Below are positions 647-61,648 of a stretch of 64,000 nt of DNA, one piece after another. How positions within the stretch are numbered: position 1 is the stretch's first letter; the number at the start of each line of letters is the position of its first letter. Source of the stretch: Pelagomonas calceolata (taxonomy: Eukaryota); the NCBI GenBank assembly GCA_918797485.1, contig CAKKNE010000001.1:5332001-5396000 (forward strand), in the 5' to 3' direction. The notes under the pieces were generated by a model. It worked only from the letters and a program-made list of their open reading frames with translations, ran no database searches and had not been told where the DNA came from. The translations under genes and the position numbers were made by a program.

Positions 647-670
647 GCTAGTGTGTTACTGGCTGCTAGC
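647..670. promoter_or_regulatory. Recurrent intergenic CTAG motif copy
   Basis: GCTAGTGTGTTACTGGCTGCTAGC, ~300 bp upstream of the CDF gene. Confidence 0.6.
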
Positions 671-967
671 TCGATTATTTTTTCAGCTGCCGCGTGCCTG
701 GAGGATAACGCGGCTACCACTAACCCATCGCTGGGACGACGGCCAATAAGCACTCGCCGCAGCCAACAGGTGGTCCGGCAGAGTGAGCCTGACAACAAGC
801 AGGCAGTGAGCCAACAAGCAGGCCGCTGACTGCTGCGCCGCCGCGCACACAACTGCGCGCGCAAGCTGCCGCCCGCGCCCCGCGCAATCCACCGCGCCCC
901 CCGGCGCAAATCAGCGTTCAACATTGAGTCGACGGCCGCCGACCGCGCGCGGCCGCTGCTCGGCGCG

Positions 968-1750
968 ATGGCCGACCCACCACCGCCACAACCGGACCCG
1001 TCCCTGAAGCTGACCAAGCGCGAGGAGTACACGTTGGGGTTCACGACCATCGCCTTCATGGCCTTTTCGGTGATTGAGATGATCTACGCGTTTTCCAGTA
1101 ATTCGATGGCCTTGTTGGGCGACGCCGTCGCGATGATGGTCGACGCCTGCACCTACATGTTCAACGGCTGTGCCATAAGAAGAGCACGGCAGCAGGGCAA
1201 GGAGGACAAGTGGGCCGTGCTAGGACCGGTCATTTCGACGTCCGTACTCATAGGGGCTATGATCTACATTTTCTACGACGCCGTCTCCACACTAGCCTCG
1301 GGGGCGTCGGGCGACGGCGTGAACCTGGTCGTGGTCCTGGCCTTCGGCCTCGCGAACCTCGTGATTGACATCGCGTCCGGCGTGCTCTTCTGCGCCTACC
1401 CGGACGCCTACAAGGCGGTCCTCGTCTTCGCCGAGCCCGAGTCCTTGGAAGCCGACGGCGGCATGAACATCCGGTCCGCACTCACGCACGTCGTCGCCGA
1501 TACTTATAGAACGATCGCTGTGCTTGTAACGGCGAGCGCCGCGATGGCCGACGACGCCATCTCCTCGACGGCCGCGGACGCCTGGGGCGCCATCGCCGTC
1601 GAGATCCCGGTCCTGGTCATGGCCTTCGGCCTCGGGCGGGCGGCGTGGAACCGGTACGTCGCGCGGCGGTCCGGCCCGCCGGCGCCGGCGCCGCGGCCGT
1701 CGCAGCCGCCGCCTGCGACCCCGGAGGCGCGGGACAGCGGGCTCGTCTAA
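968..1750 (+). CDS. Cation diffusion facilitator (CDF/ZnT-like) metal transporter
   Basis: ~6 TM helices; SNSMALLGDAVAMMVD and NIRSALTHVVAD motifs typical of the Cation_efflux family. Confidence 0.85.
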   Translation: MADPPPPQPDPSLKLTKREEYTLGFTTIAFMAFSVIEMIYAFSSNSMALLGDAVAMMVDACTYMFNGCAIRRARQQGKEDKWAVLGPVISTSVLIGAMIYIFYDAVSTLASGASGDGVNLVVVLAFGLANLVIDIASGVLFCAYPDAYKAVLVFAEPESLEADGGMNIRSALTHVVADTYRTIAVLVTASAAMADDAISSTAADAWGAIAVEIPVLVMAFGLGRAAWNRYVARRSGPPAPAPRPSQPPPATPEARDSGLV

Positions 1751-2133
1751 GTTTTCTTAGGAATCGTCGGGAGCTCCCCTCGCATCTGCCCGCGCGGGGT
1801 GCAACTCGCGCTGCTGCTCCGGACTTGTGCTGCTCTCTTATTGCTCCGTACGCTTAAGAATTGCCGATCTCTCCGCGCGTCGCGGCCTCCAGCTGGCTGC
1901 ATGTTGCCCTCCCTCAGCTGCAGTCCTTTTGCGAGGCTGTACATACGCGTCTGCTGCAGCTCAGACGATCGCCAGGCCTTGTGTGGCTCTTTAGACAGCC
2001 AAACAACTCGCCTCTCGCTTGACGCTGCCGCCGCGGCGCTGCAACCCAGGCGTTTTGCCGCTGTGCTCTCGCTCGCCATAGCACAGCCCTGCGCGGCGGC
2101 GGACGAACCACCGCAACAAACACCGCCGCAGCC

Positions 2134-3165
2134 ATGCCGACGGCGTGGCGGCCACCGCTGCTCGCGCGGCTGGCCCTGTGCTACGCCGCGGCCGCGGGCG
2201 CCGCCGGTCGCAAGCGCGGCCACGACGCCTTCTGGATCATGGACCCGTCCGACCAGTTATGTCTGACGACGCACGGCACGCTGGGCCCCTGCGACGGCGA
2301 CGCCATGTGGGTCTACGTCCCGCGCAAGGGCAAGGACAAGTGGTCTCTAGCTTCTGTACTTGAGCCTGTTACCAGACAAATGTGCTTGACCAGAGTCAAA
2401 GCTTCGGCGCGGGGCGGCGCCTGCGGCGGCAAGGCGGCCCAGCGCTGGGAGGTCGTCCGCGACGGCCAGCAGTTCGCGGTCACGGAGGATCGGCAAAAGC
2501 ACTGTGTGGTGAGAGACGCGCACCTGTGGAGCCATCGGGCCCAGCTCCAGCAGGCCGTCAAGGCGGGCAAGTCCATCCAAAGGGGGCACGACGCGGCTAC
2601 TTTAGTGAAGAAAGTGCCTACTCATGTAGCACATAACACCGTCAGTTTGCACAAGTGCGCGAAGGGCCACACGTCCTTCGAGCTGCACACCTCGAACGTC
2701 CACGAGCACGGCTTCATGTTGGCTTCCGCCGACACGCACTGCTTCGACGGCGTGCAGTTCCGGCCTTGCTCGGATGAGGATGCTCATCTGCGCTGGGGCT
2801 TTGGCGTGTCCTTCGACTGGTTAAGTGGGGCGCCCAAAAGTCAACTGTACAAGTTCTACAACTCTACTGCCTGCTTAGTTGCTGGTTCGGATGGCGGGGC
2901 GACCTTAGGTGCCTGCGACAGCCCGAAGGCGTCGGGCTGGGGTTTGCGCGCCGGCCGTCTCTCAAGGGGCGGCGACGGCCACAAGTCCGGTAGCTGTTTA
3001 GTGCGCACGTTGGACGGCACGGGCGCGCTGGCCAAGTGCAAAGATGGGATGTTCGAGCACCTCACATTAACTCTGGACTCGGACGGCTCGGATATATTAC
3101 AAGCGGCCATGGACAAGGTCGCCGAGATCGACAAGAAGAAGGCTGCCCAAGCGGCGCGGGCGTGA
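2134..3165 (+). CDS. Secreted Cys-rich ricin-B/beta-trefoil lectin-like protein
   Basis: Signal peptide; repeated CL…C…QxW-like units (QLCLT…LGPC…MW; MCLT…AC…QRW; ACLV…LGAC…GW). Confidence 0.6.
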   Translation: MPTAWRPPLLARLALCYAAAAGAAGRKRGHDAFWIMDPSDQLCLTTHGTLGPCDGDAMWVYVPRKGKDKWSLASVLEPVTRQMCLTRVKASARGGACGGKAAQRWEVVRDGQQFAVTEDRQKHCVVRDAHLWSHRAQLQQAVKAGKSIQRGHDAATLVKKVPTHVAHNTVSLHKCAKGHTSFELHTSNVHEHGFMLASADTHCFDGVQFRPCSDEDAHLRWGFGVSFDWLSGAPKSQLYKFYNSTACLVAGSDGGATLGACDSPKASGWGLRAGRLSRGGDGHKSGSCLVRTLDGTGALAKCKDGMFEHLTLTLDSDGSDILQAAMDKVAEIDKKKAAQAARA

Positions 3166-3384
3166 TGTGGTGGGGGCCTAAGCGTGGAAAGTAGTCTCTG
3201 TGCACTGCGTCGAGTCGATGTTACGGTGCTAGGACTAGTGGGCGGCGCCCCGGGGGAGACACCGCGCGTCGCCGATTCATCGGCGGCGGGCGCGTCGGCT
3301 CCAGACACTATCCCGCGAAAGATCGAGAGAGAGTCGCTTATTGAACCCACCCCCAGGTAGTACGGGCCCGAACGCTGATCGAAT

Positions 3385-3543: not shown

Positions 3544-4968
3544 ATGCGCGCCACAGCATGGCTCATAGTCGCTTTGTGTGCCCTCGGCGCGCTTGCCGAC
3601 GAGCCCAAGAAGAAGAAGAATGCTAAACCGAAGAAGGAAAAGAAAGACGCCAAGAAGGAGCAAAAACAAAAGGACTGCCCGGCGTGCCCCGCGGACCTCT
3701 CGGATGAATTAGCAGCAGCCACGGCACGCGCCGAGAAGGCCGAGGCGAAGACCTGCCCCGAGGATTTGAGTGAGGCGCTCGCCGCCGCCGAGACGCGCGC
3801 CTCCATAGCCGAGGAGAAGGCCGTGGAATTGCAGAAGAACGTCGACGACGAGATCGCCAAGGTCGTCGAGGCGAAAAAAGACGCCAAGCACTGGAAGGCC
3901 CAGGTCGACGGCCTCGAGGAGGCCCTCCAATCGACGAAGGCGGCCCTCGCCACGTCCCATGCCGAGCCCGTCGTGCCTGGGGTATCTATCTCAAATGATG
4001 GTACCGTGGCGTTCAACGCCACGGATGGACTCATAGCGGCCCAGAACGGCGCCGGGGCCGCGCTGGCCATGGCCGGCGAGGCCGCGAAGACGGGCTACCA
4101 GGCGCTCGTCGACGCCATTCCGACAGAGGAGGCCAAGAAGCTCGGCGAGGATGCGGTGGATGCGATGTACGGTGCCGTCGACAAGGGCAAGGCCAAGACG
4201 GCGGAAGCGTATGGTAATGCCTGGGGCTACGCCGTGGCCAATGAATATGTTGCGCCGGCGACGCAGTCTCAGGTCGAAGAGAAAGTATCCGTCGCGTACA
4301 GCAAGGCCGCCTCGATCACTTCGGATGTGTGCTACGACAAGATTCCTTCATTATATGAAAAGCACGCGAAAAAATACGTCGACGCCGCTTTGATTGAAAT
4401 CGGCGAGCGGAAGGCGCTGGCCACGGTCGAATTAAGGGAGCTCTTTGCCCACGCCCAGCAGGCCTTGCATGATCGCGTCCAGCAGCTGAAGGAGAAGCTG
4501 CCGACGTCGGCGGATCTGAAGAGTAGGGCGGACTCGGCGCGGGAAGTGGTGGCCCTCCGCTTCCACGCCTTGTTAGTGGCCGCGGGCGCCTGCGACGAGA
4601 CGAGCGATGTGCCGTGCGCGCCGGCGAAGCGCCTCGCGTCCGCGTGCGTCGCCTGCTGGGCGGTGGCCGCGTGCGTTTTACTATTAATCGCGGCCTACCA
4701 TTTGGTGGGGATGTTATTGGGTCTGGCGAAGAAATTGGTCGTCGCCGTGGGCAAGCGCGCCGTGCGCCTGCCGCTCATGCTGATTAAGCTGGCCATCGCG
4801 TTGGTGGTCCTCGCGGTGTCGCTTGCTCTCAAACTCGCGCTGCTGCCCCTCCGCATCGTGCTGCTGCCCGTGACGCTGCCGCTCGCCTTGCTCGCGCGGA
4901 AGAAGGGGCCCGCGAAGGCGTCGGCGCGGCCGCCGCGCAAGAATTCTCCTGCCCGCGGGCGGCGCTAG
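3544..4968 (+). CDS. Secretory-pathway coiled-coil membrane protein of unknown function
   Basis: MRATAWLIVALCALGALA signal peptide, Lys/Glu/Ala-rich coiled coil, C-terminal hydrophobic helices. Confidence 0.7.
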   Translation: MRATAWLIVALCALGALADEPKKKKNAKPKKEKKDAKKEQKQKDCPACPADLSDELAAATARAEKAEAKTCPEDLSEALAAAETRASIAEEKAVELQKNVDDEIAKVVEAKKDAKHWKAQVDGLEEALQSTKAALATSHAEPVVPGVSISNDGTVAFNATDGLIAAQNGAGAALAMAGEAAKTGYQALVDAIPTEEAKKLGEDAVDAMYGAVDKGKAKTAEAYGNAWGYAVANEYVAPATQSQVEEKVSVAYSKAASITSDVCYDKIPSLYEKHAKKYVDAALIEIGERKALATVELRELFAHAQQALHDRVQQLKEKLPTSADLKSRADSAREVVALRFHALLVAAGACDETSDVPCAPAKRLASACVACWAVAACVLLLIAAYHLVGMLLGLAKKLVVAVGKRAVRLPLMLIKLAIALVVLAVSLALKLALLPLRIVLLPVTLPLALLARKKGPAKASARPPRKNSPARGRR

Positions 4969-5056
4969 AGATCTGCCCCCCTCCCGCACGCGCGGGAATA
5001 ACTTCACAAACTTATATAAATATGCACACGATATGTCGAACGAGCATCGAGATAAG

Positions 5057-6523
5057 CTATCCGGGCGTGCCCACGGCGATCACAAACGCGACCGTACCGA
5101 ACGCGGCGACCGCGTACTTCGGCCACGTCCTCCCACCATCGGGTGTATAACGCGTCGTATCCAACCGCCCGTCGCCGAAGGCCGCGCGACATTTTCGCTG
5201 GCCGAGCACCGACAACAGCGGGGGGAACCCGCAACAAATCAGAAACACGAGGATGCCCGCCGTGTCGATCATGGCCGTCAGATTCGCCATGCAGCCCGCG
5301 CCGATTATCGGCGGCAGCGCCACGCAGGCGCGCATGGCCCGTCGGTAGCCGACCTGTCTTTGTGCGCGGTCCGCACGATCACCGGCAAACAGCGTCACGA
5401 GCGTGTCGGCGGCGATCGAGACATTGAGAGGATAAACCGAAAACACGTCGACCGCGGGGAAGAGCACGACGAGCCACCGTATGCCATCGAGCAACACAGA
5501 ATACGGAATGCCAACGCCGAACGCGTCCCACTGGCAGTTCGCCGCCTTGGCTATGGAGCCAAACGAGTAGGCTACCGAAACTGCTAGGATCGAGTAGAGC
5601 ACAAAACTTCCTGCTAAACCGGCACACAGCGCTTTGTTCAGGTCGTCCCTGTCTCGCATCTCCCTTGCTACGAGTGGTACCTGGCCGCCCATGTTCTGCG
5701 CGAAGACAGTTGCCGGTAGCAATCTTCCTAAACCAGCGAAGCGTACGAAGGGCGCGGTGCTCGTGGCCGCGCCGGGGCCGAAGCCCGGCCCGAAGTCGAC
5801 CCCATACGCCGACAGTAATGCTGTAGAAGCCATCAGCACGACAATGACAACGCGCATCACCGACATGACCATCTGGAAGCTTATTTGTTCGCCCGGCTCC
5901 AGTATTGATAAAGGTACGGCTAATATACCAAAAATGAAGGTGCACTTCCGGTACGTAACACACGCGACGTCGTGCTTGCAGGCCTCGTGGCCGAACAATG
6001 GGGAGAACGTCGAGAGCGCTTCGGCGAAGACGAACGCGTAGGCCCAGAGCGTCGCGAGGTAGTACAACAGAAACGTCCCCGCGTAGGCCATCTCCAGCTT
6101 TTTCCCGCAGAAGATGCGGCACAATTCGCACACTTCAAAAGTGCGGTCTGACAGTGATGGTCGTCTGACTCGTGAGAGCAGCGACGGCGACGACGATTGG
6201 CCTCGTAGCGCGCGCGCCTCCAAGGCTTCGGCGCGCGCCATGGCTTCCGCCTCCCAGGCGAGCGACGTGAGCATAACCAGACAAACGACGCCCATCGTTA
6301 TTGGGCTGAGGATTAGCCCGCACCGCGCCACGGCCGCCGGCAAGGCCAGGAAGCCCGAACCCATGACGAGGTTAAAGGCGATGCAGCACGCGGCTATTAA
6401 TGAAACGCCCTCGTTGCGCCGTTTGCGGTGGTAGAGCTCGTAGCGCTGCGGCAGCGGCGTCGTGTTGATGGTGCGCCGCTCTCCCCGCGAGCCGCCGCGC
6501 CACCAGCGGAGGAATGAGTCCAT
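5057..6523 (-). CDS. Amino acid transporter (Aa_trans/AAAP family)
   Basis: FNLVMGSGFLALP motif and ~11 TM segments; start taken at MDSFLRWW. Confidence 0.85.
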   Translation of the reverse strand: MDSFLRWWRGGSRGERRTINTTPLPQRYELYHRKRRNEGVSLIAACCIAFNLVMGSGFLALPAAVARCGLILSPITMGVVCLVMLTSLAWEAEAMARAEALEARALRGQSSSPSLLSRVRRPSLSDRTFEVCELCRIFCGKKLEMAYAGTFLLYYLATLWAYAFVFAEALSTFSPLFGHEACKHDVACVTYRKCTFIFGILAVPLSILEPGEQISFQMVMSVMRVVIVVLMASTALLSAYGVDFGPGFGPGAATSTAPFVRFAGLGRLLPATVFAQNMGGQVPLVAREMRDRDDLNKALCAGLAGSFVLYSILAVSVAYSFGSIAKAANCQWDAFGVGIPYSVLLDGIRWLVVLFPAVDVFSVYPLNVSIAADTLVTLFAGDRADRAQRQVGYRRAMRACVALPPIIGAGCMANLTAMIDTAGILVFLICCGFPPLLSVLGQRKCRAAFGDGRLDTTRYTPDGGRTWPKYAVAAFGTVAFVIAVGTPG

Positions 6524-6900
6524 AGTTTGTACGGCTTGGTGGCGTCGCGCGACCTCGAATGGCTGCAGAGCACTGGTGGTGCACAAGCTCTGTGTGCTTG
6601 GACGCTACGCGTTGCAGCTGATACGCAGCGTGCGGTTTCAATGGCTGCTCGAATGTGTCCAAACACGTCTTAATCTTGTGTTAGCAGCGCGCCGCGTTAA
6701 ATGAAAGAGGCTGAGGAGCCCGCACGCAGGCGCTTTGCGTCGAGTGTTGAGCCAGCCTATACGAGCGTAGTAACCCTTACCGATTCCCAAACGCTGCGCC
6801 AGGGTAGCGTCAGACCCACGCCGACGCCGTCGACGCAAGCCACGCGCACCGGAGCCCGCTGCACACCAAGCTCTCCCTGTGTGCCAGAGAGAGCTACACG

Positions 6901-7803
6901 ATGGCCGAAGTCCCGGCGGACCTCTCCGCCTTCGCGGACGAGCTCGCCGACGCCGCCGGCGCGGTCATCCGCAAGTACTGGAGAACAAGGGTAGAAGTCA
7001 TCTCCAAGGACGCGCGCCTCGACGTGTTCGCCGACGAGCCCGTGACGATCGCCGACCGCGAGTCCGAGCGTGTGATGAGAGATATGATCGAGCAGCGCTA
7101 CCCGGCCCACGCTATCCTAGGCGAGGAGCACGGCGCGAAGGGCGACGGCCGAACGAGCGAGTGGGCGTGGGTGCTCGATCCTGTGGATGGCACGAAGTCG
7201 TTCATCACGGGCAAGCCGCTGTTTGGGACACTCATTGCTTTGTTGAACTACGGCAAACCGGTATTGGGGGTCATCGACCAGTGCGTGCTCAAGGAGCGCT
7301 GGAAGGGCACTAGTACCAAGACGACGTTCAACGGGCGGCCCTGTTCGACGGATGACTGTACGTCGTTACAAGAAGCGATGGTCTACGCGACGACGCCAGA
7401 GATGTTCGCGCCTGGGTTGGAGACGCGAGCATGGAACTACTTGAGCTCGCGATGCAAGCGCGCTTTATATGGGTGCGACTGCTACGCGTATGGGCTGTGT
7501 GCTTCTGGGAGTGTGCAGCTCGTGTGTGAGGCGGACCTGATGCCTTATGATTACCTGGCCGTCGTGCCCGTGGTCTTGGGCGCCGGCGGCGTGATGACTG
7601 ACTGGGAGGGCCGGCCCTTGACGCTGCCGAACCACGACCTATCGAAGGGGCGGGTCCTCTGTGCCGCTAATTCCAAGCTGCATTCTGAGGCGCTCGCGGC
7701 GCTTAGGAAGGCGCCTCCCTTCTCGCGCGCGGCGCGGGACGCGTTTCTTCTTGGTGTGGCGTGCGGCGTCGCGGCGATGGCGTTCTTGCGGGGGCGTAAG
7801 TGA
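6901..7803 (+). CDS. hisN: Histidinol-phosphatase of the inositol monophosphatase family (HisN/IMPL2-like)
   Basis: PVTIADRESE, ILGEE, WVLDPVDGTKSFITGKPLFGTLIAL, GCDCYAY, YDYLAVVPVV motifs. Confidence 0.85.
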   Translation: MAEVPADLSAFADELADAAGAVIRKYWRTRVEVISKDARLDVFADEPVTIADRESERVMRDMIEQRYPAHAILGEEHGAKGDGRTSEWAWVLDPVDGTKSFITGKPLFGTLIALLNYGKPVLGVIDQCVLKERWKGTSTKTTFNGRPCSTDDCTSLQEAMVYATTPEMFAPGLETRAWNYLSSRCKRALYGCDCYAYGLCASGSVQLVCEADLMPYDYLAVVPVVLGAGGVMTDWEGRPLTLPNHDLSKGRVLCAANSKLHSEALAALRKAPPFSRAARDAFLLGVACGVAAMAFLRGRK

Positions 7804-8083
7804 TCGTGTCGTGTTTTATATATGCACTTTACGAAACCCGAATTGATAGTGCAAAGAGTCTTCCTCCGCATCCAGTTTTGCATCGATTTGTGGACGCTGC
7901 GACCTTACCGGTGATTCGAGGCGGTGTATATAGTGCATCTGTACTCAGTCCGTCACGTCGCAGCTTGTCCTGTGCGAAAACGCGGCCGCGTCGCTGCGCT
8001 AGACGCAAAACATCTTTGCTGCTCTCACAGCGCTTGCGGGCGACAGAGAGCCCGGTCGCGACGAAACTACACTAAGCGACCTC

Positions 8084-9532
8084 ATGCGGACCCTCCTTCT
8101 CCTAGCGCTGGCGCCGGGCGCCGCGGCCGTCGGCTGGAGTCAATTCCGCGGCGGTCCGTACAGAGACGGCACCACAACCACGGTCGGCCCGAAGGCGAAC
8201 AATTTGTTGTGGCGCTTTTTGCTGCGCGGCACGTCGCAGGGCGCGCCGACGGTGCACCCCGACGAGTCCATGGTTTATGTCGGAGGCACGGACGGCTTTT
8301 ACGGCGTGAACAGCGACGGCACGTTCGGATGGTACCTTCGCATCGATAAAGGTGTGGTGAACAGCGCCGCGGCGGTGTCAACCAAGCACAACTTGGTGGT
8401 CTTCGGCGGCATGAACGGCGGCATCTACGGTGTCGACGCGAGGACCGGCCTCACGAAGTGGACTGTGTGGACGAAAGCGCAAACAAAAAGTACTTACGGT
8501 AGAAACGAACCATACATATACTCCTCGCCTGTTATTAGTAATGACGACATTGCGTTCGTGGGCGCCGCCGACGGCTTATATGCGGTGGAACTAGCCTCGG
8601 GACGGGTCAAGTGGATCTTCGACGCGAAGGGCGAGCCCGTCTGGAGCTCGCCAGCTTTGAGCGCGGACCAGAAGACGGTCTACGTGGGCGGCATCGACAA
8701 CTTCGTCCACGCCGTCGATAGTGAGACGGGCACGAGCAAGTGGGAGTGGGAGACGGGCGGCTTCCCCGACGACCCAGATGATCCTGATGTTGATTCATCG
8801 CCAGCTGTCAGTCGGAGGGACGGGACCGTGTATGTAGGTTCGTTTGACAATAGGTTGCACGCCATCGACGGTTCAACAGGTCAAGTGAAGTGGTCCTACC
8901 GGACGAATGATGATGTTATTAGTAGTCCGGCCGTCGCGAGAGACGGGAAGACCGTCTACATCCCGTCGACGTCTGGCGTCGTGCACGCTGTCTCAGATAA
9001 AGGTGAGAAGCGCTGGTCCACCGATCTCGGGCACCCGGTCATGGCCGAGCCCGTGTTAGACGGTGAAGGTACCTTGTATGTTGGTAATGACGACGGCAAG
9101 GTCTACGCCTTGGACGCGAGGAAGGGCAAGATCCTCTGGTCGCACGACTTCGGGGATAAAGTGAGAGGCGAGCCCGCCGTCGCGAGCGGCCGCCTGTACG
9201 TGGCGACGATCAACGCGGACACGTTCCTCCACTGCATCGGTGGTGAAGGAAGCTCGCACCACTCGTCCTCGAAGGACGATAAGGACGAGGGCGGCTCGGC
9301 CTTTGGCACCGTCGTGACTTGGTTGGCTGTTATTATAGGCCTCGGCGTGGTCGCCTACGCCGCTCTGACCATTGGAAAGCCGTATCTGGAGGAGCACGGC
9401 TTCCGCCTGCCGGTCATGCAGCAGCGCGACGGCTTCGACCGCGCGCCGGTCGACGACGGGACGTACGCGGCGCCCTTCGTCGAGCTCCAGGAGTCCATGA
9501 TCGACGACAAGCCTACAGGGGCGGTCATCTAG
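8084..9532 (+). CDS. Type I membrane protein with PQQ-like (BamB-type) beta-propeller repeats
   Basis: Signal peptide; repeated SSPA…VYVG…ALD…G…KW blades; C-terminal TM and short cytoplasmic tail. Confidence 0.85.
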   Translation: MRTLLLLALAPGAAAVGWSQFRGGPYRDGTTTTVGPKANNLLWRFLLRGTSQGAPTVHPDESMVYVGGTDGFYGVNSDGTFGWYLRIDKGVVNSAAAVSTKHNLVVFGGMNGGIYGVDARTGLTKWTVWTKAQTKSTYGRNEPYIYSSPVISNDDIAFVGAADGLYAVELASGRVKWIFDAKGEPVWSSPALSADQKTVYVGGIDNFVHAVDSETGTSKWEWETGGFPDDPDDPDVDSSPAVSRRDGTVYVGSFDNRLHAIDGSTGQVKWSYRTNDDVISSPAVARDGKTVYIPSTSGVVHAVSDKGEKRWSTDLGHPVMAEPVLDGEGTLYVGNDDGKVYALDARKGKILWSHDFGDKVRGEPAVASGRLYVATINADTFLHCIGGEGSSHHSSSKDDKDEGGSAFGTVVTWLAVIIGLGVVAYAALTIGKPYLEEHGFRLPVMQQRDGFDRAPVDDGTYAAPFVELQESMIDDKPTGAVI

Positions 9533-9556
9533 GCCCCCCAAACAATGTGCTAAGAA

Positions 9557-11182: not shown

Positions 11183-11312
11183 CCTGGGCTGCCCCTCTTC
11201 GCGCAGCCGCCGCACGGATGGACGGTGAGCTTCTGCCTGCAGAGAACGCTTGGATGCAGGGCTCTGCGGCCGCGTATGCGGGTAGGAAACGAGCGTCTCT
11301 GAAATTTGGCTT

Positions 11313-14440: not shown

Positions 14441-14517
14441 TGCGCAATTGTAGGAGTTTCCTTCAAGGCGAGGCTGCCCAGTCGGCTGTCCCGCTCGTTC
14501 GCGCGGCGCAATTCCGA

Positions 14518-14540
14518 GCTAGCGGGCTGTAAGACACTAG
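14518..14540. promoter_or_regulatory. Recurrent intergenic CTAG motif copy (reverse)
   Basis: GCTAGCGGGCTGTAAGACACTAG in a divergent promoter. Confidence 0.7.
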
Positions 14541-14561
14541 AAACGCTCGACTGACGGCCAA

Positions 14562-18081: not shown

Positions 18082-18168
18082 GGTTTTTTTCCCTTTGTAC
18101 TAAGAGTACTAGTATTCTGTTTCCCACGGCGCGTCTCTCGACGCTATGATTGTTACGGTAATTCTGAG

Positions 18169-18240
18169 GGTAATTACCGGTAATGGAAATTACCGGTAAT
18201 TACCGGTAATGGAAATTACCGGTAATTACCGGTAATTACC
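18169..18240. repeat. Palindromic AT-rich array of GGTAATTACC (x4) and GGTAATGGAAATTACC (x2)
   Basis: Units at 18169, 18179, 18195, 18205, 18221, 18231; extra partial copies at ~18157 and ~18257. Confidence 0.9.
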
Positions 18241-18295
18241 CGAGTCCATTTTTGGCTACCGGGTAATGACCCATGGGGTGGAAAGGTAAAACGCG

Positions 18296-19368: not shown

Positions 19369-19820
19369 GGCTGGTGCAGCTTTTTGTGCAGCTTTTTTGT
19401 GCGTGATCGATCTGAAAGTGATCGATGCGGCTGTAGGCGAGCTCTTTGGTTTGGGAGGTGCAGTATCGGGGCAAGCGCGCTGGCCGCTGAAGTTGCGCAA
19501 TAATCGTCCTAGCGCATCATACATACTAGCCAACGTCGACGGCAATTCACGCTACCGGCCGCTATCCAACTTTGGCTGCGACCGCCTCGCTCGGGAAGCA
19601 ACTCGTCGCCTCTCGCGCCGAGACGCACCGGCCGGTTCGACGCGCCGCGCCGCTCTCGGTCAAAAACCAGCTCCTGGTCGCTTAGCGCGCGACGAGCCAC
19701 CGGTCAGCCTCGTCGTCGCGCCCGCGCCGACGAGCCACCACCGCAGCCCCAGCCCCAGACTCGTCGCCGCCGCCGCGGCGCCGAGCCCGCGGCCGCGGCC
19801 CGTTCGCAACCCTGGCGGCC

Positions 19821-23081: not shown

Positions 23082-23105
23082 GCTAGTGTGTTACAGACCG
23101 CTAGC
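23082..23105. promoter_or_regulatory. Recurrent intergenic CTAG motif copy
   Basis: GCTAGTGTGTTACAGACCGCTAGC upstream of the RanBP2-ZnF gene. Confidence 0.7.
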
Positions 23106-26033: not shown

Positions 26034-26058
26034 GCTAGTATGTCAATGTGGCGCTAGC
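26034..26058. promoter_or_regulatory. Degenerate CTAG motif copy
   Basis: GCTAGTATGTCAATGTGGCGCTAGC in a divergent promoter. Confidence 0.45.
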
Positions 26059-33492: not shown

Positions 33493-33498
33493 CAACAA

Positions 33499-44654: not shown

Positions 44655-45002
44655 CTTTTTTGGCTTGTTAACTGTTTTTGTTTTTGCATATAGCGTCGAC
44701 GGCGTGTGTCCGTTGTCTTCAGCGAGCGCTCGTGACGCCGCTCGCGCTGCCCGGGTGAGCCTGTGGTGCTCCCTGAGCTGCCGCCCCGGCGCGCGTTGAT
44801 GGCTCGTCGATGGTGCGGCCCCCATGCGGTCCGAGGTGCGCGAGAGCCCTCCACGCCTGTCGCCGCGACTCCTTGCCAAGAATGAGCTGCATTAACCCGC
44901 ACCAGGTGGATGGTGAAGTTATTTCCCCGTCCAAGCTCGTCGCGCTCGGGAGGCGCCGGGCTGCCTTTGACGCTGCGAGGGCTGCCTCGGAGCGCCGAAA
45001 GC

Positions 45003-45955: not shown

Positions 45956-46038
45956 GCGCGCGCGCGGTTTCCCCTCCCCTTTGCTGTTTCTAAGGAGGAT
46001 TTGTTTTCTAATTTGGCTCTCGAACTTGCTTTCGACTC

Positions 46039-46064
46039 GCTAGCGGCCTGTAAGACACACTAGC
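46039..46064. promoter_or_regulatory. Recurrent intergenic CTAG motif copy (reverse)
   Basis: GCTAGCGGCCTGTAAGACACACTAGC. Confidence 0.7.
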
Positions 46065-47160: not shown

Positions 47161-47306
47161 TGTTATTTAGTTGTATTTAATCACCAACGAGTCATGTTGC
47201 GACCCGTACCAGGAGATTGCTGTGCTTTTGGCACTCCGTTGCTATTCACAGCATTTGTAGAACAGTGAAGCACTGCCATTGCGAAAAAAGCTGCTGCGCT
47301 GTTCAC

Positions 47307-50051
47307 ATGTCCTCACACATCTTGCTGTTCCTCACGCTTGCGGCGCCAGGTGCATCACCCGCGTCACACAGCTCACAATTTGCTTTCGCAGCGCACGCGT
47401 CGTCATTCGTGGCGGGCGCGCGTCGTCGTGGCGCCGCGACATACGCTCACATACCCCACATGGCGCAATTGCGCCAACGCTCCGGGCGAGCGGAGCACGA
47501 GGTCCCGCGCCGGGACGCTCTCGACGCCGCGACGATGAAACTTCCCGAAAATCAATCATACGCCCGCGCTCGTCGGCGCTCGGTCGAAAGCACATCAACC
47601 GGATCGCGCGCAGGCGTTCAAGGCCACGGCTACATGACCGAGCCGCCCTCGCGCCAGTACGAGGCGTACAAGGCGAACGGTTGGCCGAACCAAGTGGCCG
47701 AGTACGATCCGCATGGCGTCGCTGCCGGAGGCATGTATGCCGACTGCGACGGCTGCCGGTCGCGCGACTGGTTCGGCCCGAACCCGTGGTCGGAGCCCGG
47801 TACGGCGAAGCATTTGGACTTCATTATGGGTGGGACCGGCGGCAACATCCTCGGCGTCTGCGGCGCCTCGCCGTCGCGGGACAACGACTACAACACGCCT
47901 CTGGATGGGCACTGGGGCATGAGCGCCAAGACCACCTACAAAGCCGGCGACGTGATTGACGTATCCTGGTGCGTGTCCGCAGACCACGGTGGCATCCCAC
48001 AGTTCCGCTTATGCGATGACGAAGGCCTCGTGTCAGCTGTGACGACGCCCGACAAGCCGCCGAGCCTCGCGGACCTCGAGGCGCTCGAGCAGTGCTTCCA
48101 ACGCGGTCTTCTGCGGTGCGACGACGTCCCCGGTCAGGACTGCTCCCAGGTCGAGGTCTGCGACACCTACGCTAAAGACTGGGGCGCCTGCTCCGATCCC
48201 GGCCAATTCCTGCACTGCCGGGACGAGAAATCGACCGAGGGCAAGTACTGGGCGTGCGTCAACACGCAGGAGACGTGCGACCACGGGTTCATGGCCCGCT
48301 ACAAGCTCAAGATCCCCGAGTCCTTCCCGGCCTCGCAGCACACCATTCTCTCGTACCGGTGGGACACGTACGAGAACAACGAGGTCTTCGTCGGGTGCGC
48401 CGACGTCGCGATCACGCCGGACGGCGACGCGGCGCCCGTGACGCCTAGGCCGACGCCGCGGCCCACGAAGGGCGACGTCGCCACGCCCAAGCCGACGCCG
48501 CGCCCGACGATCAAAGACGAGGTGCCCGCCACGCCCCGCCCGACCTCCAAGCCGACGGCCGCCTCCGGTGGTGAAGACGACGACGCCGACGCCTACTGCT
48601 GCCAGAACGACGGCAAGTCGTGTGACGGGTGCTCGTGGATCGCGCCGCCAGGCAACTACTGCGCCCAGAGCGAGAGCAACTGCGGTAACTGCGGCGAGCA
48701 GTTCGCCTGGTGCGGCGATGGTGCCGTGACGGACGACGAGCCCGCGCCGGCGACGCCCCGGCCGACCGTCAAGCCCACGGCCGCGGCGCCTCAGACGCCC
48801 CGGCCGACGCCCAGACCCCAAGCCAACAACGATGACGGCTCGTCTGGCGGCGAGGGCTACTGCTGCTTCTGGCCCGAGGGCCCCGGTGGCTGCGGCCAGT
48901 GCACGTCGCCGGCGGGCCCCGAGAACTGGTGCGCCAAGGGCCGCAAGGAGCAGTGTCTCGTGCATCGCGTCGATGGCGTGTATCGCGTGAACCTTATATT
49001 CCACACAGGCAAAGAGTGCGTCGAGGACTGCGGCCACACGTGGTGCGACGGCGGCTCGCCCGTGACCGACGACGGCGACACTGATGACCGTGCGACGTGC
49101 GACCTTCCCGAGGCCGGCGCGCCGGTGGACGCCAGTGGCTTCGTAGAGAAGCACGGCAAGCTCCGCCTCGACGGCGTCCAGCTCGTCGATGAAAACGGCG
49201 CCCCGGTGCAGCTCCTGGGCATGTCGAGTCACGGCCTCCACTGGTTCCCCGACTGCTACACCTTCGAGGCGGTCGAACACCTGGTCAAAACCTGGGGCAC
49301 TACTGTTTTCCGGGCGGCGATGTACGTCGGCGAGGGCGGCTACGCGTCGGACCCGTCGGTCAAGCAGAAGGTCAAGGACATCGTCGCGTGGACGAAGCAG
49401 CTCGGCATCTACTGCATCATCGACTGGCACGTCCTCACGCCGGGCGACCCCAACGCTAACACCTACTCGGGCGCCGTCGACTTCTGGACCGAGATGGCGA
49501 CGCTCTACAAGGACGAAGACCACGTTATCTACGAGATCGCGAACGAGCCGAACGGCGTGGCCTGGTCTCGCGTGAAAGAGTACCACAATCGTATTATTGG
49601 GGCGATCCGAGCCATCGACGCGGAATCGATCATCATCGCGGGCACGACGACGTGGTCCCAGGACATTCATCTCGCTGCGGACGAGCCAGTCGCCGAGTCG
49701 TACAACGTCATGTACGCGTTCCACTTCTACGCCTGTTCCCACGGCTCGCTGCTGCAGCGCGTCAAGGACTACCGAACGAAGATACCTATCTTCGTCTCAG
49801 AGTGGGGCACGTCGTCGTATAGCGGCGACGGAGGGGTGTGCGCGTGTGAGGCCAAGGAGTTCCTCGACGTGTTCTCGGACAAGGACGGCTCGGGCGGCGG
49901 CATCAAGCTGTCGATGGCGCAGTGGTCCTGGGCCGACAAGAGCGAGTCCTCCGCCGCGCTCGCGCCGGGCGCGTGCCGCAGCGACTGGGACTCGCTCTCG
50001 GAGTCGGGCGAGTTCCTTCGGGCCTACGTCCGCGACGCGACGCGTGCCTGA
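47307..50051 (+). CDS. Secreted AA13-like LPMO - PT linker - 2x Cys-rich module - GH5 endoglucanase fusion; introns 47350-47613 (GT-AG) and 48943-49008 (GC-AG)
   Basis: Spliced 18-aa signal MSSHILLFLTLAAPGVQG then His1 HGYMTEPPSR; WCVSADHGG; EVFVGCADVAI; GH5 GMSSHGLHW, IIDWH, IANEP, FHFY, VSEWG. Confidence 0.85.
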   Translation: MSSHILLFLTLAAPGASPASHSSQFAFAAHASSFVAGARRRGAATYAHIPHMAQLRQRSGRAEHEVPRRDALDAATMKLPENQSYARARRRSVESTSTGSRAGVQGHGYMTEPPSRQYEAYKANGWPNQVAEYDPHGVAAGGMYADCDGCRSRDWFGPNPWSEPGTAKHLDFIMGGTGGNILGVCGASPSRDNDYNTPLDGHWGMSAKTTYKAGDVIDVSWCVSADHGGIPQFRLCDDEGLVSAVTTPDKPPSLADLEALEQCFQRGLLRCDDVPGQDCSQVEVCDTYAKDWGACSDPGQFLHCRDEKSTEGKYWACVNTQETCDHGFMARYKLKIPESFPASQHTILSYRWDTYENNEVFVGCADVAITPDGDAAPVTPRPTPRPTKGDVATPKPTPRPTIKDEVPATPRPTSKPTAASGGEDDDADAYCCQNDGKSCDGCSWIAPPGNYCAQSESNCGNCGEQFAWCGDGAVTDDEPAPATPRPTVKPTAAAPQTPRPTPRPQANNDDGSSGGEGYCCFWPEGPGGCGQCTSPAGPENWCAKGRKEQCLVHRVDGVYRVNLIFHTGKECVEDCGHTWCDGGSPVTDDGDTDDRATCDLPEAGAPVDASGFVEKHGKLRLDGVQLVDENGAPVQLLGMSSHGLHWFPDCYTFEAVEHLVKTWGTTVFRAAMYVGEGGYASDPSVKQKVKDIVAWTKQLGIYCIIDWHVLTPGDPNANTYSGAVDFWTEMATLYKDEDHVIYEIANEPNGVAWSRVKEYHNRIIGAIRAIDAESIIIAGTTTWSQDIHLAADEPVAESYNVMYAFHFYACSHGSLLQRVKDYRTKIPIFVSEWGTSSYSGDGGVCACEAKEFLDVFSDKDGSGGGIKLSMAQWSWADKSESSAALAPGACRSDWDSLSESGEFLRAYVRDATRA
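48951..49008 (+). mobile_element. Short introner element in the LPMO-GH5 gene
   Basis: TSD GCAAGGAG (48943-48950) / GCAAAGAG (49009-49016); ends CAGTGT…TTCCACACAG; core CGCGTCGATGGCGTG. Confidence 0.8.
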
Positions 50052-53085: not shown

Positions 53086-55209
53086 TCACGCGCCGCTCGG
53101 CCCCATCGTGCGGAGCTTGACGTCCTCGGGCGTCTTGTCGAGGATGTCGTGCGCGTACTTGAGGAGCATCTTGTCGAGCTTGGCCTCGGGGTCGAAGAAG
53201 GGATTGATCTGGCCCGGTTTCATACCAGCAGCTAAATGGTTGACGTCGCGGTGGTTCGCCTCATCGGCGCGGATCGCGAGCATCAGGTCGAGCACGGTAC
53301 CCTCCTCGCCTGCGTGAACCGGTGAGTGGCGTGAGAAAGGTCTACCATCATCGTGGACGCCGGATCCGAACCCAGGTGCCAGTAGGCCCGCCCGATGGCC
53401 GGCGCGATCTGCGTGCGCCACGCGGCCAATTCACTCCCTTCCGGCGCCGCCTCGATGCCGCCGATGATCTTCGTGTACGTGCTACAGGCCTCTTCTTCCA
53501 CGTAGCCGACCAGGCGGTGGCAGTACGTCGGGTTGATGACGTACATCGTCCCGAAGAACGTCGCGAAGACGCACTGGCCGCCGATGACCGCGAGCCGGAA
53601 CATCGTGCCCGGCTGGTACATCTTGATGAACGCTAACAAGTGCATCTTCTCGTTCTCCGCCTGTGCATAAATCAAAATTTCAAGGCGCGTTCCACGCCAT
53701 CGAGCACCCGACGCACTGGTAGATTTCCACACAGCTCTCGACCTCCTCCAACAACAAGTTCGTCCAGCCGCCGTCGCGCTCCATGGTCCTCAAAGCCTTG
53801 AAGTGGCGGAACATGGCCCCCACAAACCCGGGCACGGCAGCGATCGTCTCCAGGAAGATCGCCCTTAACATAATCTTCTTCTGCGTGAGCTCGCCGATGT
53901 TCCAGAGCGTGGCCGCGTCGAAGCCCTTGCGCAATAACCTGCGTGGAAATCAACCAGTGAGTTGGTATGTCGAACGGTGAGGAACCGGCATCGCCACGCC
54001 ATTGAGCAAAGTGTCGCGTCGATGGCGTGGAGGTCGTCGCGACGATTCAGCACGAAGGCGCCGTGAAATCTTGATTTCCACACAGGTAGTAACCAGGTCG
54101 AGTAGTAGGCCGCCTTGTCCGTCGTCGTCTTCGGTGGAGTATGCGTCAATTTCACATCTAGTTCCTCGGGCGAGTAGACGGAGTGGCCGCCGGCCTGTGT
54201 GGAAATCAACCAGTGCGTTGGGTGCGGTTCACTAAGTCATTTCTCGGCGATGACACGCCCGTGCTGGCTCCGTCGAGCGGTGAGGGACCGGCACTGCCAC
54301 GCCATCGAGCAGGCATCACGTCGATGGCGTGGAAGTCATGATTCAGCCGGTGGGCGGAAGGCGCTGGAAGTACTACGAAATTTTGATTTCCACACAGCCG
54401 CCCGCGAGGTACTCGACGCTACATTTGCCCACACCGAGCGGGTGCTTCGTGCCCGTGGTCCTACGTGGTCGACGACGTCGCGTCGATGTCGTGGGGGTCG
54501 GACGACGGCGTCGCGTCGATGGCGTGGGTTCGGACGACGGCGTCGCGTCGATGGCGTGGGGTTCGGACTCGGACGGCGCGTCGATGGCGTGGGGTTCGGA
54601 CTCGGACGGCGCGCTTGAAGTGGTTGCCCATATCCAATCCAACCTCGCCCTCGTCGCCGAGCTTGACGTCCAAGGCATGAATGAAGCGGTCGTAGGACAC
54701 GCTACCGCCGGCCTTGGCCGCGTAGAACCTGAGCGGAAATCAAACTTCGGGCGCCCCACGCCATCGACGCGACGTTGTCCCAAGGACCGCGTCGTCTACC
54801 TAACTCACTGGTTGATTTCCACACAGCGTAGAACATCTCGCCCAAATCTTCCACTTCTTTGTCGGTGAACGTGCCGCGGTGCTTCTTTAGTAAAGCTCTA
54901 AGCTCCTCGGCGTCGAGGCGGCCGTCGCCGTTCTTGTCGGCGGCCATGAGCTCGGACCTGCGCGGTGTGGCGCGTCGGCGGGCGTAACGCTGTGGAAAAG
55001 TCTGACGCGGCGGCGCGCTTGATCACGCGGACCTGCTGCTCGCCTAAAAACTTGAGAGTGTGCGGTCCATCGCTGTCCGTAACCGTCACGCGGGGCGAGG
55101 TCGACGGGTCGATGGGCTGAGCCGGCGCCGACAGGCATCTTAGAGGCGCGCGGCGCACGATTGGTTGGGTGGCCCTGGCAGTTGCACGAGCAATGTGGGC
55201 GAGACGCAT
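53086..55209 (-). CDS. AOX: Mitochondrial alternative oxidase with N-terminal EF-hand; 8 exons (55209-55019, 54957-54835, 54728-54615, 54460-54406, 54194-54094, 53938-53743, 53660-53372, 53309-53086), 430 aa
   Basis: Splicing gives one 1293-nt frame with DKNGDGRLDAEE, FLETIAAVPG, LLEEAENEKMHL, GYVEEEA, IRADEANHRDVNH. Confidence 0.92.
53661..53734 (-). mobile_element. Introner element (AOX intron 6, 53661-53742)
   Basis: TIRs CTGTGTGGAAATC / GATTTATGCACAG; decayed TSD GTCGAGAG / GCGGAGAA. Confidence 0.8.
53939..54085 (-). mobile_element. Introner element (AOX intron 5, 53939-54093)
   Basis: TIRs CTGTGTGGAAATCAA / TTGATTTCCACGCAG; TSD GTTACTAC / GTTATTGC. Confidence 0.88.
54195..54397 (-). 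mobile_element. Introner element (AOX intron 4, 54195-54405, GC-AG)
   Basis: Perfect 15-bp TIR CTGTGTGGAAATCAA; TSD GCGGGCGG / GCCGGCGG. Confidence 0.92.
54461..54614. repeat. AOX intron 3 made of ~4 tandem copies of the introner core motif
   Basis: CGCGTCGATG(G/T)CGTGGG(G)(T)TCGGAC… repeated with ~32-33-bp period. Confidence 0.85.
54729..54826 (-). mobile_element. Introner element (AOX intron 2, 54729-54834)
   Basis: Perfect TSD GTTCTACG (54827-54834 and 54721-54728); TIRs CTGTGTGGAAATCAA / TTGATTTCCGCTCAG. Confidence 0.92.
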
Positions 55210-56748: not shown

Positions 56749-56938
56749 GCTTGAGCGGCCTCCACGGGCGCGGCAGCGCGTCGGCTACGTCACAGGTGTC
56801 GTCACGCGCGCGGCACGACTACTTTTGATGCTCTGCCGATTCGCGCGCGCAGTTGTAGGAGCCGTGTGGCCCAAAAAATGCAAAGCGCGGCACAGCCAAG
56901 CTAGCGACCTGAAAGGCACTAGAAAAATTGTGATCTTG

Positions 56939-57019: not shown

Positions 57020-57032
57020 GAAGGAAGGAAGC

Positions 57033-58568: not shown

Positions 58569-58795
58569 CGTACCGCAGCCCTTCACCGCGTCACGCTCTC
58601 AGCCGGCTCTCTGCGGCCATTGCGAGCCTGCAGACGTGCCATGCGCGTATGTTTGCATTCCTCTGATGCTTCACCAAATATTATTCCTCTCATGTGCAAA
58701 CCATGAAGCTCAGTCTAGGCAGCCACAGCCTCGTAGCGCCGCCGAGGAATGCCGCGCGAGAGGAAGTAGTCCGGTTCGCACTACACGTGTGGCTT

Positions 58796-58819: not shown

Positions 58820-58904
58820 CGGATTAACTTTTGGGCTCTGCCTCTCGCCGCGGCGCTACGACAGCCGGTCAAGACCCTCGTTTGCACACAGCACCTTACT
58901 GATC

Positions 58905-60019: not shown

Positions 60020-60387
60020 AGGCTCGATCATCCCCCTTCCCTTCCCCGTGTGCGCGCCTGCGACAGTAACGTTGTCACACGACGCCGGCCGGCCGGCCGC
60101 CGAGCATTCTTCGGCCGGGCGCTAACTAACGAGGGGGTCGACAGAGCTATATGATAACACTATCGAGGTCAGGCGTGCGGTCTAGGCGTGCGGCAGGAGG
60201 ACTACTTGGAGGACTCGCTTCGCAAAGTTCGGGTTGCGCTGCTGTGCGGCCTGTGCTGTGCCGAGCGCACAGCGTGCTTTTGCTGCCGCTTTGCGCGTCG
60301 TCAGCCCACGGGCCGCCGCACGCATTGTCGGGCAGCCTCAAGAAGCCGCGGAGAGCAGCCATGCGACGCGTAAACCCCATCTAGACC

Positions 60388-61545
60388 ATGAAGCACTGCC
60401 TGCTCCTCGCGGCGGCGGCGTACGCCTACAACGCGTCGACGCCGCCGACGAAGATTATAAAATCGAACTGCACGCTCCAGCGCTTCCCGCCGATCTACGC
60501 GAATCGCGTGCACTTTTTTTCCTTTGTGGCGGCGGACCTGTACCACCTGCTCGGGCATGCGTTAAGGTACTACCGCCACCTCGGTCTAGATCTGAAGAAC
60601 CAGGGGCGAATATTTGTACACAACGCGAGCGGCCCGGTAGCGCTCGAGAAGACGTTGGTGTATTTGCGGCGGTACGAGATAACCTACCGTGTCTCGAACG
60701 AGTGGTCCAGTCAGACGAAGCGCGAGGCAGCCAACCAATTCCTCCTGAGCCTGCCGAACGACGCCTGGCTCGTCTACCCCGATCTGGACGAGTTCTTCGC
60801 CTTTCCCTGCGAAGTGTTGAATATTATGGACCAGGGAGGGCTCCTGAGCGGCCAGATGGTCGACCGCGTCGCATACGATTGGCACCTCAACAGTCTGAGG
60901 CCGCTTCCAAGAGCAGCAAAGATGAACAATCGCTCATCCATAGACTACCAGTTCCCGCGGTCGTGTCGACTCACTGGCGGTTTGCTCGATACGAACGTTA
61001 ATAAATACACGCTCGTGCCGGCCGTCGACGCGGCAGGAAAGAGGTTGCGGTACATCAACGCCCACTCCGTCGCCTGTGGCACGCAACGACGTAACCTACG
61101 CCACGTCCACGCGCAGCGCGCCAACGATTGTCATGGGGTTACGATCTACCGGGGACCCGCCGTCGCGCACTACGGCTTCACGAAGATCACGATCCCCGTC
61201 CTGGAACGGAAGCTCGCCACATATAAAGCTTTGGCGCGTACTTCCGGCGAACTCCGCCACCGCGACGCCGTCGAGCACTACCGGAAGCTCCGGGACTCGT
61301 TCGAGTACTGTCCTTTGACGAAGTCGTTCCAGTTCACTCGAAAAGCGCGGCGGCTCCTTCAACGAAGGCGGTACTGCGACCCGCTTCCACCCCATCTTGA
61401 GCGGGACTACGCGCCGTCTCGATTTTGTTTCGAGCCGACGAAGGCGCCCCGGCCGCGGCCGACGCCGCGGCCCTCTGTCATGCGGAAGGCGAAGGCGCCT
61501 CGAGTCTTGGGGCGTCCGGACGACGACGACCCGCCCGACGACTAA
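60388..61545 (+). CDS. Secreted GT-A-fold (GT2-like) putative glycosyltransferase
   Basis: Signal peptide; HALRYYRHLG…WLVYPDLDEF (DxDE) pattern. Confidence 0.65.
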   Translation: MKHCLLLAAAAYAYNASTPPTKIIKSNCTLQRFPPIYANRVHFFSFVAADLYHLLGHALRYYRHLGLDLKNQGRIFVHNASGPVALEKTLVYLRRYEITYRVSNEWSSQTKREAANQFLLSLPNDAWLVYPDLDEFFAFPCEVLNIMDQGGLLSGQMVDRVAYDWHLNSLRPLPRAAKMNNRSSIDYQFPRSCRLTGGLLDTNVNKYTLVPAVDAAGKRLRYINAHSVACGTQRRNLRHVHAQRANDCHGVTIYRGPAVAHYGFTKITIPVLERKLATYKALARTSGELRHRDAVEHYRKLRDSFEYCPLTKSFQFTRKARRLLQRRRYCDPLPPHLERDYAPSRFCFEPTKAPRPRPTPRPSVMRKAKAPRVLGRPDDDDPPDD

Positions 61546-61629
61546 CGTTTTGTGTTGACTCTAGATCGTTGTTCATCTTAGTAGAGAGAGAGTCGCTTGG
61601 CGCGCCGGAGATATTGCTCCGATAATGAC

Positions 61630-61648
61630 CTAGCTGTAAGACACTAGC
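61630..61648. promoter_or_regulatory. CTAG motif copy (reverse, short spacer)
   Basis: CTAGCTGTAAGACACTAGC upstream of ATG 61774. Confidence 0.65.

What the first reader, a model, noticed from the sequence alone, without database searches (positions are those of the whole stretch)
647..61648. A ~24-bp CTAG-bounded motif occurs about once in most promoter regions
Seen: consensus GCTAGTGT(C/G)TTACAG-N1-2-CGCTAGC in either orientation at 647, 3385, 11313, 14518, 21535, 23082, 30667, 34669, 39574, 46039, 50222, 52972, 55318, 58796 and 61630, with degenerate copies at 19509, 26034, 43447 and 56900. Every copy is intergenic and 5' of at least one gene, typically ~25-300 bp from an ATG, and nearly every divergent gene pair has exactly one. 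I noticed none inside CDS or between convergent 3' ends. The flanks are unrelated, so it is not part of a longer repeat. The two CTAG half-sites lie roughly 1.5-2 helical turns apart. Inference: a lineage-wide, orientation-independent promoter element or the site of a general regulatory factor that organises the nucleosome-free region (functionally like yeast Abf1/Reb1 sites), or a replication-origin mark. I am not aware of a description.
Basis: partly seen in the sequence, partly recalled or inferred. Interest (0 to 1): 0.78.

Follow-up and report, generated by a model that had tools for sequence, protein, structure and literature searches.

The report
Two-way promoter element of Pelagomonas
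A 22-letter DNA signal sits just before the start of many genes in the ocean alga Pelagomonas, pointing either way, and is likely the landing site of an unknown protein that would tell the cell where to begin reading genes on both sides.

Summary
The motif is real. Refined consensus: (TTG)CTAGTGT[C/G]TTACA-N1-4-CGCTAG(C), 22 bp in most copies. It lies in 9 of 11 divergent, 9 of 19 tandem and 0 of 11 convergent intergenic regions. A metagenome scan gave 127 further copies at 121 loci with unrelated flanks; named neighbouring proteins are Pelagomonas calceolata or close kin. None of 89 copies with gene calls lay in predicted coding sequence. New evidence: RNA 5' ends pile up 23-46 nt from the motif edge (8 of 9 piles beside a motif), on either side and in either orientation, while start codons lie 82-292 nt away. 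Two pairs of homologous genes carry it at the same distance in opposite orientation. No target-site duplication, shared body or base-pair covariation was found. Best reading: a bidirectional promoter element bound by a general regulatory factor, working like the human CGCG element or yeast Reb1/Abf1 sites but unrelated in sequence, longer, and probably present in thousands of copies. The factor and any footprint are untested. No paper in the searched library holds the sequence.

The parts
647..670 (+). motif copy, tandem region, 60 nt after an upstream stop read by eye, 5' of a cation-efflux gene
   Evidence: 29.9 bits
3385..3404 (-). motif copy, short spacer, tandem region
   Evidence: 25.9 bits
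11313..11336 (+). consensus copy, divergent region; minus-strand RNA 5' pile at 11282 (32 nt)
14518..14541 (-). motif copy, divergent region; minus-strand 5' pile at 14496 (23 nt), plus-strand RNA contig begins 14573 (33 nt)
19509..19529 (-). degenerate copy between ribosomal L13 and ubiquitin-conjugating genes; plus-strand 5' pile at 19565 (36 nt)
   Evidence: 11.8 bits
21535..21558 (-). motif copy, divergent region; plus-strand 5' piles at 21596 and 21603 (39, 46 nt)
23082..23105 (+). motif copy, tandem region; RNA contig of the next gene begins 23141 (37 nt)
26034..26058 (+). degenerate copy between thiolase and ribosomal L28 genes; minus-strand 5' pile at 26000 (35 nt)
   Evidence: 11.4 bits
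30667..30691 (+). motif copy with one extra base, divergent region
   Evidence: 35.3 bits
34669..34691 (+). motif copy, divergent region
   Evidence: 35.5 bits
39574..39595 (+). degenerate copy, divergent region (glycoside hydrolase 1 / elongation factor G)
   Evidence: 14.4 bits
   Evidence: not among the top 32 hits
46039..46064 (-). motif copy with two extra bases, tandem region, 28 nt after the poly(A) site at 46011
   Evidence: 34.7 bits
50223..50241 (-). degenerate short copy, 5' of a Snf7 gene
   Evidence: 14.6 bits
52972..52993 (-). motif copy, tandem region, 5' of a DnaJ/TPR gene
   Evidence: 28.7 bits
55318..55338 (-). motif copy, tandem region, on the 5' side of the alternative oxidase gene
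   Evidence: 24.1 bits
56900..56922 (-). motif copy, tandem region; one RNA contig runs across it
   Evidence: 27.8 bits
58796..58819 (+). motif copy, divergent region; plus-strand 5' piles at 58845 and 58854 (27, 36 nt), minus-strand pile at 58666 (131 nt)
61630..61648 (-). shortened copy (CTAG starts 14 bp apart), tandem region
   Evidence: 27.0 bits

Best explanation
The motif is a two-way promoter element of Pelagomonas that lies a few dozen bases from RNA 5' ends on either side, and it is likely the binding site of an abundant sequence-specific factor that would open the chromatin and place transcription starts. Shown: a fixed 13-bp block (CTAGTGT[C/G]TTACA), a spacer of 1-4 bases and a second block (CGCTAG); placement in promoter-containing intergenic DNA; no dependence on orientation; RNA 5' ends 23-46 nt from its edges. 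Inferred: two flexibly linked DNA-binding units (or two proteins) read the two blocks; the bound factor and the short T-tracts beside it keep nucleosomes away and let polymerase II start outward on both sides, so one site serves two head-to-head genes; in tandem regions it likely also marks the border with the upstream gene's 3' end. Whether it recruits the initiation machinery directly or only sets the nucleosome border is open.
For: Placement: window 9/11 divergent, 9/19 tandem, 0/11 convergent. Metagenome regions other than the one that fetched each locus: 9/21, 8/31, 0/43; pooled chance of no convergent hit after length correction 0.004. 0 of 89 strict copies in predicted coding sequence. 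RNA 5' piles 23-46 nt from the edge in 8 of 9 piles beside a motif, at 6 motifs, while their start codons are 82-292 nt away. Symmetry: 61 versus 63 gene starts on the two sides, median distances 174 and 175 nt. Kept in place between diverged lineages while flanks decay: L012/L029 (20 of 22 bases; neighbouring protein 95% identical) and L038/L074. Opposite orientation at about the same distance from homologous genes: L027/L061 and L042/L104. TTT enriched 3.25-fold 6-26 nt outside the motif, p about 1e-42. CG frequency rises near 100 and 285 nt and dips near 140 nt from the motif; the 100-versus-140 contrast held in three separate sets (p 9e-5, 0.012, 0.008) and persisted after allowing for start-codon position.
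Against: No protein, footprint or reporter data. The 5' piles come from poly(A) RNA-seq of one sample, not cap sequencing, and the tool showed only part of its rows (9 and 14 hidden). One pile beside a motif is 131 nt away, and a minus-strand pile at 26339 implies RNA that reads across the copy at 26034; an RNA contig also spans the copy at 56900. 12 of 30 promoter-containing regions lack it, including the most highly expressed gene (5' end near 44954), so it is not needed for strong transcription. 2 of 47 copies with gene calls on both sides fell between predicted 3' ends. The CG wave dies out beyond 300 nt, its windows were chosen after seeing the profile, it is weak on 3'-facing sides (n=34, p 0.04-0.4) and there is no genome-wide CG periodicity. 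The homologous pairs were all fetched because they hold the motif, so they cannot show whether it is ever lost. A 22-bp site kept this uniform is unusual for a transcription factor.
Confidence: 0.72

Rival explanations
1. The motif is the remnant or footprint of a small transposon that targeted CTAG in open promoter DNA and spread to thousands of sites; it may be neutral or only later put to use.
For: Very uniform sequence (33 of 127 copies identical); CTAG at both ends could be read as a duplicated target; either orientation occurs, also at homologous genes; other small repeats lie close to it.
Against: No duplication outside the motif beyond chance (mean 1.89 versus 2.06 bases in permutations, n=148) and no shared body in the flanks; only 14 bases lie between the two CTAG; about one copy per region and a tight distance to RNA 5' ends; kept while flanks diverge. 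A transposon origin followed by selection is not excluded.
Confidence: 0.12
2. The motif mainly serves a chromosome function other than transcription, such as licensing replication origins, loading cohesin or directing recombination, and lies in promoters because they are the open DNA.
For: Regular spacing of about one per 3.5 kb (18 in 64 kb); anatomy of two inverted ends around an asymmetric core; many active promoters lack it.
Against: RNA 5' ends keep a narrow distance from it on both sides; density is far above that of known eukaryotic origins (recalled); the variable spacer does not fit recombinase sites (recalled). None of these functions could be tested here.
Confidence: 0.1
3. The motif acts as a DNA hairpin or cruciform extruded from its inverted ends, with no need for base-specific reading.
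For: Ends are inverted repeats of 5-7 bases and an inner 3-base stem can be drawn.
Against: Folding energies of -1.2 to -3.9 kcal/mol, z from +0.4 to -2.1 in 7 folds; 0 of 20 copies with a change in the inner stem keep pairing; the outermost pair matches no more than chance (93 versus 91.6 of 152); the unpaired core is as conserved as the arms.
Confidence: 0.04

Closest known systems
Vertebrate CGCG element (TCTCGCGAGA; called the Banp motif in the listing of PMC9363121)
   Same: Promoter element with starts on both strands within 20-70 nt and lying in nucleosome-depleted DNA (PMC6192621, passages read); the motif here shows 5' ends 23-46 nt away on both sides and also holds a conserved CG.
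   Different: No sequence likeness; 22 bp in two blocks with a variable spacer instead of a 10-bp palindrome; found in about 60% of promoter-containing regions of the window; an alga; activity and methylation sensitivity untested.
Yeast general regulatory factor sites (Reb1, Abf1, Rap1)
   Same: About one per promoter, either orientation; Reb1 sites align nucleosome arrays symmetrically regardless of orientation (10.1101/2020.02.28.969618, passages read). T-tracts beside the site and a two-part site (Abf1) are recalled parallels.
   Different: Different sequence (recalled consensus, compared by eye); longer and more uniform; spacer varies by several bases; no factor known; phasing seen only as a weak composition wave.
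Oomycete Inr/FPR and CCAAT elements (nearest described stramenopile promoter motifs found)
   Same: Abundant upstream elements in a stramenopile; CCAAT occurs in both orientations, a median of about 192 nt before the start codon (PMC3520976, passages read).
   Different: Inr/FPR lies at the start site, a median of 81 nt before the start codon, in 37% of genes; the motif here lies upstream of the RNA 5' ends on both strands and holds no CCAAT.
Pelagophyte introner elements and MITE-like repeats
   Same: Short dispersed repeats with inverted ends in the same genome (956 putative introners, 10.1101/2021.10.25.465678, section 17 read).
   Different: Introners are about 210 bp and lie in introns; introner-like ends were never within 270 nt of the motif (0 of 17); the motif has no body and no flanking duplication.

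Membership tests
CGCG element | consensus TCTCGCGAGA | tested here: not met
   consensus from 103 aligned copies is unrelated
CGCG element | transcription starts within about 20-70 nt on either strand | tested here: met
   8 of 9 RNA 5' piles beside a motif at 23-46 nt; RNA-seq proxy, one sample
CGCG element | drives two-way reporter activity, abolished by methylation | not testable with these tools
   needs reporters
Yeast-type general regulatory factor site | about one copy per promoter, orientation-independent | tested here: met
   18 of 30 promoter-containing regions; 61 versus 63 starts on the two sides
Yeast-type general regulatory factor site | matches the Reb1, Abf1 or Rap1 recognition sequence | tested here: not met
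   compared by eye with recalled consensus sequences; no motif library was available
Yeast-type general regulatory factor site | nucleosome depletion and phased arrays on both sides | tested here: inconclusive
   T-tracts and a damped CG wave; no chromatin data
Yeast-type general regulatory factor site | bound by an abundant sequence-specific protein | not testable with these tools
   needs footprinting and pull-down
MITE or DNA transposon remnant | target-site duplication outside the element | tested here: not met
   no excess over permuted flanks; CTAG itself as a fixed target cannot be excluded
MITE or DNA transposon remnant | shared internal body or longer parent element | tested here: not met
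   flank-to-flank BLAST of 155 sites found only homologous genes and separate repeats
MITE or DNA transposon remnant | empty sites at orthologous loci | tested here: inconclusive
   4 of 4 homologous pairs hold it, but were selected for holding it
Hairpin or cruciform element | compensatory base changes and stable fold | tested here: not met
Oomycete Inr/FPR | lies at the transcription start | tested here: not met
   RNA 5' ends fall outside the motif, on both strands
Known structured RNA family | Rfam match | tested here: not met
   0 matches in the 64-kb window at gathering scores
Replication origin element | ORC binding and initiation of replication | not testable with these tools
   no data

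The most novel reading that the evidence does not exclude
Pelagomonas marks more than half of its promoters with one long, nearly invariant address that is itself the core promoter: a lineage-specific factor, possibly recruited from a transposon, binds it, loads two initiation complexes back to back and sets the nucleosome register, and the address can flip in place between its inverted ends without loss of function.
Probability: 0.2. Interest if true: 0.88.

Novelty: new variant of a known kind. Interest (0 to 1): 0.68.

Why it matters
[quoted passage not shown] A 22-bp signal in probably 4,000-9,000 promoter regions (extrapolated, not counted) would give a precise handle for start-site annotation, a minimal two-way promoter for genetic tools, and bait to find a master promoter factor in a stramenopile. 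Its length, uniformity and flexible spacer raise a general question: how such a site reaches and stays in thousands of promoters.

Tried and rejected
No whole genome was held for the window, so no genome-wide count was made. Viral contigs: 0 matches with two patterns. Prokaryotic species genomes: 6 matches in 596 billion bases; five records examined had one strict match each, four of them within about 2.2 kb of a contig end; two of these lie beside eukaryote-type genes (nucleotide-sugar transporter, HAD-ankyrin) while the rest of the contig is prokaryotic. I read these as mis-joined algal DNA (not proven) and the cyanobacterial one as chance, so the motif is not a prokaryotic repeat. Plasmids: chance-level hits only, E=6. 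Hairpin and target-duplication readings failed. Genome-wide CG periodicity was absent and an ApT wave was not seen. NCBIfam confirmed the reading frame for only 11 of 67 neighbouring proteins scanned, out of 138 predicted; 18 of 20 predicted proteins looked up by exact sequence were in the protein collection, which supports the gene calls in part. The 43 bits of information from 103 copies is inflated by the search pattern and was not used as evidence. A likeness of the left end to animal and fungal RFX half-sites is recalled and was not tested. The paper on linker methylation in Aureococcus was not held; I saw only its citation in PMC9998398. Earlier findings of this scan: 3 look-ups, none returned anything.
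Full report
Organism. The window is compact, intron-poor eukaryotic DNA of 62.7% G+C. Its elongation factor G is 77% identical to that of Aureococcus anophagefferens and lies on a 6.28-Mb contig. Proteins next to the motif in metagenome loci are identical to or cluster with Pelagomonas calceolata entries: L032 is an exact match on a 5.39-Mb contig, L078 is 99% and L012 93% identical to theirs; 4 of 20 proteins looked up had a named P. calceolata member among those listed, and none listed another named species. I therefore take the window to be P. calceolata, and the motif to occur on other chromosomes and in sister lineages. No whole genome was available.

All 19 strings are present. A scan for CTAGTGT-N0-3-TTACA-N0-4-CGCTAG gave 14 hits with at most 2 mismatches against 0 in 30 shuffles. 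The left 13 bases form a rigid block; the spacer before the right block is 3 bases in 95, 2 in 25, 1 in 7 and 4 in 6 of the strict copies.

Placement. In the window the motif occupies 9 of 11 divergent, 9 of 19 tandem and 0 of 11 convergent regions. In metagenome loci of 900 bases or more (and the six prokaryote-labelled records), 0 of 89 strict copies overlap a predicted gene; of 47 with calls on both sides 27 are divergent, 18 tandem and 2 convergent. Leaving out the region that fetched each locus, occupancy is 9 of 21, 8 of 31 and 0 of 43; pooled with the window and corrected for length, the chance of no convergent copy is 0.004. Gene calls come from a codon model trained on 23 window genes and are only partly validated. 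Scaling these rates to 16,667 genes and 32.4 Mb suggests about 4,000-9,000 copies; this is an extrapolation.

Link to transcription starts. Stranded poly(A) reads from one sample were laid on 40 of the 64 kb. Among the 5'-end piles shown, nine lie beside a motif: eight are 23-46 nt from its edge and one is 131 nt away; the start codons of the same genes are 82-292 nt away. Piles occur on both sides and for both orientations; at 14518 a minus-strand pile and a plus-strand RNA contig begin only 77 nt apart around the motif. Five other places shown were two motif-less promoters (17083; 44934-44955) and three sites inside genes (19842, 26339, 49451). RNA-seq ends usually fall a little short of the cap (general knowledge), so true starts may be slightly closer. 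Over 124 gene starts the two sides of the motif are used equally (61 and 63; medians 174 and 175 nt). In tandem regions the upstream stop codon is a median 99 nt away (n=35), and one poly(A) site lies 28 nt before a copy, but an RNA contig spans the copy at 56900, so it is no absolute stop.

Evolution. Four pairs of homologous regions turned up. In L012/L029 (coding DNA 82-87% alike) and L038/L074 the motif stays in place while the sequence around it decays. In L027/L061 and L042/L104 it lies at about the same distance from the homologous gene start but in the opposite orientation; these may be paralogues, since no homology was found on the far side. All four pairs were selected for holding the motif and cannot show loss.

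Chromatin hints. TTT is 3.25-fold enriched 6-26 nt outside the motif. CG frequency, read outward, rises near 100, 185 and 285 nt and dips near 140 nt; the 100-versus-140 contrast repeats in three independent sets and survives correction for start-codon position, but it fades beyond 300 nt and the windows were chosen after inspection. Linker CG methylation is reported for Aureococcus (cited in PMC9998398, passage; the original paper was not held). This fits a positioned first nucleosome but does not prove it or tell linker from core.

Rivals. There is no target duplication beyond chance and no shared body, which argues against a plain transposon remnant, though a transposon origin followed by selection remains possible. 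Folding is weak and no compensatory change was found (0 of 20 inner stems; outer pair 93 versus 91.6 expected). Rfam has no match. Viruses have none, and the six hits in prokaryotic genomes look like mis-joined algal DNA or chance.

Comparison and novelty. The motif works most like the vertebrate CGCG element, whose starts lie 20-70 nt away on either strand (PMC6192621, passages), and like yeast Reb1 sites, which phase nucleosomes symmetrically whatever their orientation (10.1101/2020.02.28.969618, passages). It is a member of neither: the sequence is unrelated, longer and has a flexible spacer. It differs from the oomycete Inr/FPR and CCAAT elements (PMC3520976, passages). Four 13-base strings of the motif occur in 0 papers of the searched library; searches joining Pelagomonas, pelagophyte, Aureococcus or stramenopile with promoter and motif terms listed nothing on it (listings and abstracts only); the P. 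calceolata genome preprint has 0 occurrences of 'motif' and of 'promoter' in its main text. Subscription journals and that preprint's supplements were not searched.

Verdict. A real, apparently undescribed, two-way promoter element of Pelagomonas; mechanism by a general regulatory factor 0.72; new variant of a known kind; interest 0.68.

Noticed in passing
window 3217-3370; L052, L101, L096, L048, L065, L021, L012, L028, L114, L004, L026, L056: Four families of small dispersed repeats lie mostly within 10-175 nt of the motif at varying distances. They may be mobile elements that favour open promoter borders, but the loci were fetched around the motif, so the closeness is biased.
   Followed up: partly
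L122-L125, L127 (G001:C13, G003:C32, G002:C54, G005:C24): Contigs in marine prokaryotic species-representative genomes carry a perfect motif near a contig end, in two cases beside eukaryote-type genes; probably algal DNA mis-joined into these assemblies.
   Followed up: partly
window 53900-54830: The alternative oxidase gene region holds several introner-like repeats, some in short tandem runs; many reads from elsewhere match them.
   Followed up: no
window 18150-18260: A short array of palindromic A/T-rich units in a convergent region, next to a small cysteine-rich reading frame.
   Followed up: no
window 30892-32343: A JmjN-JmjC protein with a C-terminal CXXC zinc finger: a histone demethylase-like protein that could read unmethylated CG; no link to the motif was tested.
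   Followed up: no
window 47181-50051: One gene joins a lytic polysaccharide mono-oxygenase domain to a family 5 cellulase and has a GC-AG intron at 48942-49009.
   Followed up: no
L021:3980-4060: Telomere-like TTAGGG units inside an intergenic repeat next to the motif.
   Followed up: no
L114; L051: Two strict copies in one short region: about 65 bases apart in L114, and about 460 bases apart between the same two predicted genes in L051.
   Followed up: no
window 26339: A minus-strand RNA 5' pile inside the ribosomal L28 gene implies an upstream start for the thiolase gene or an antisense RNA that crosses the motif.
   Followed up: no
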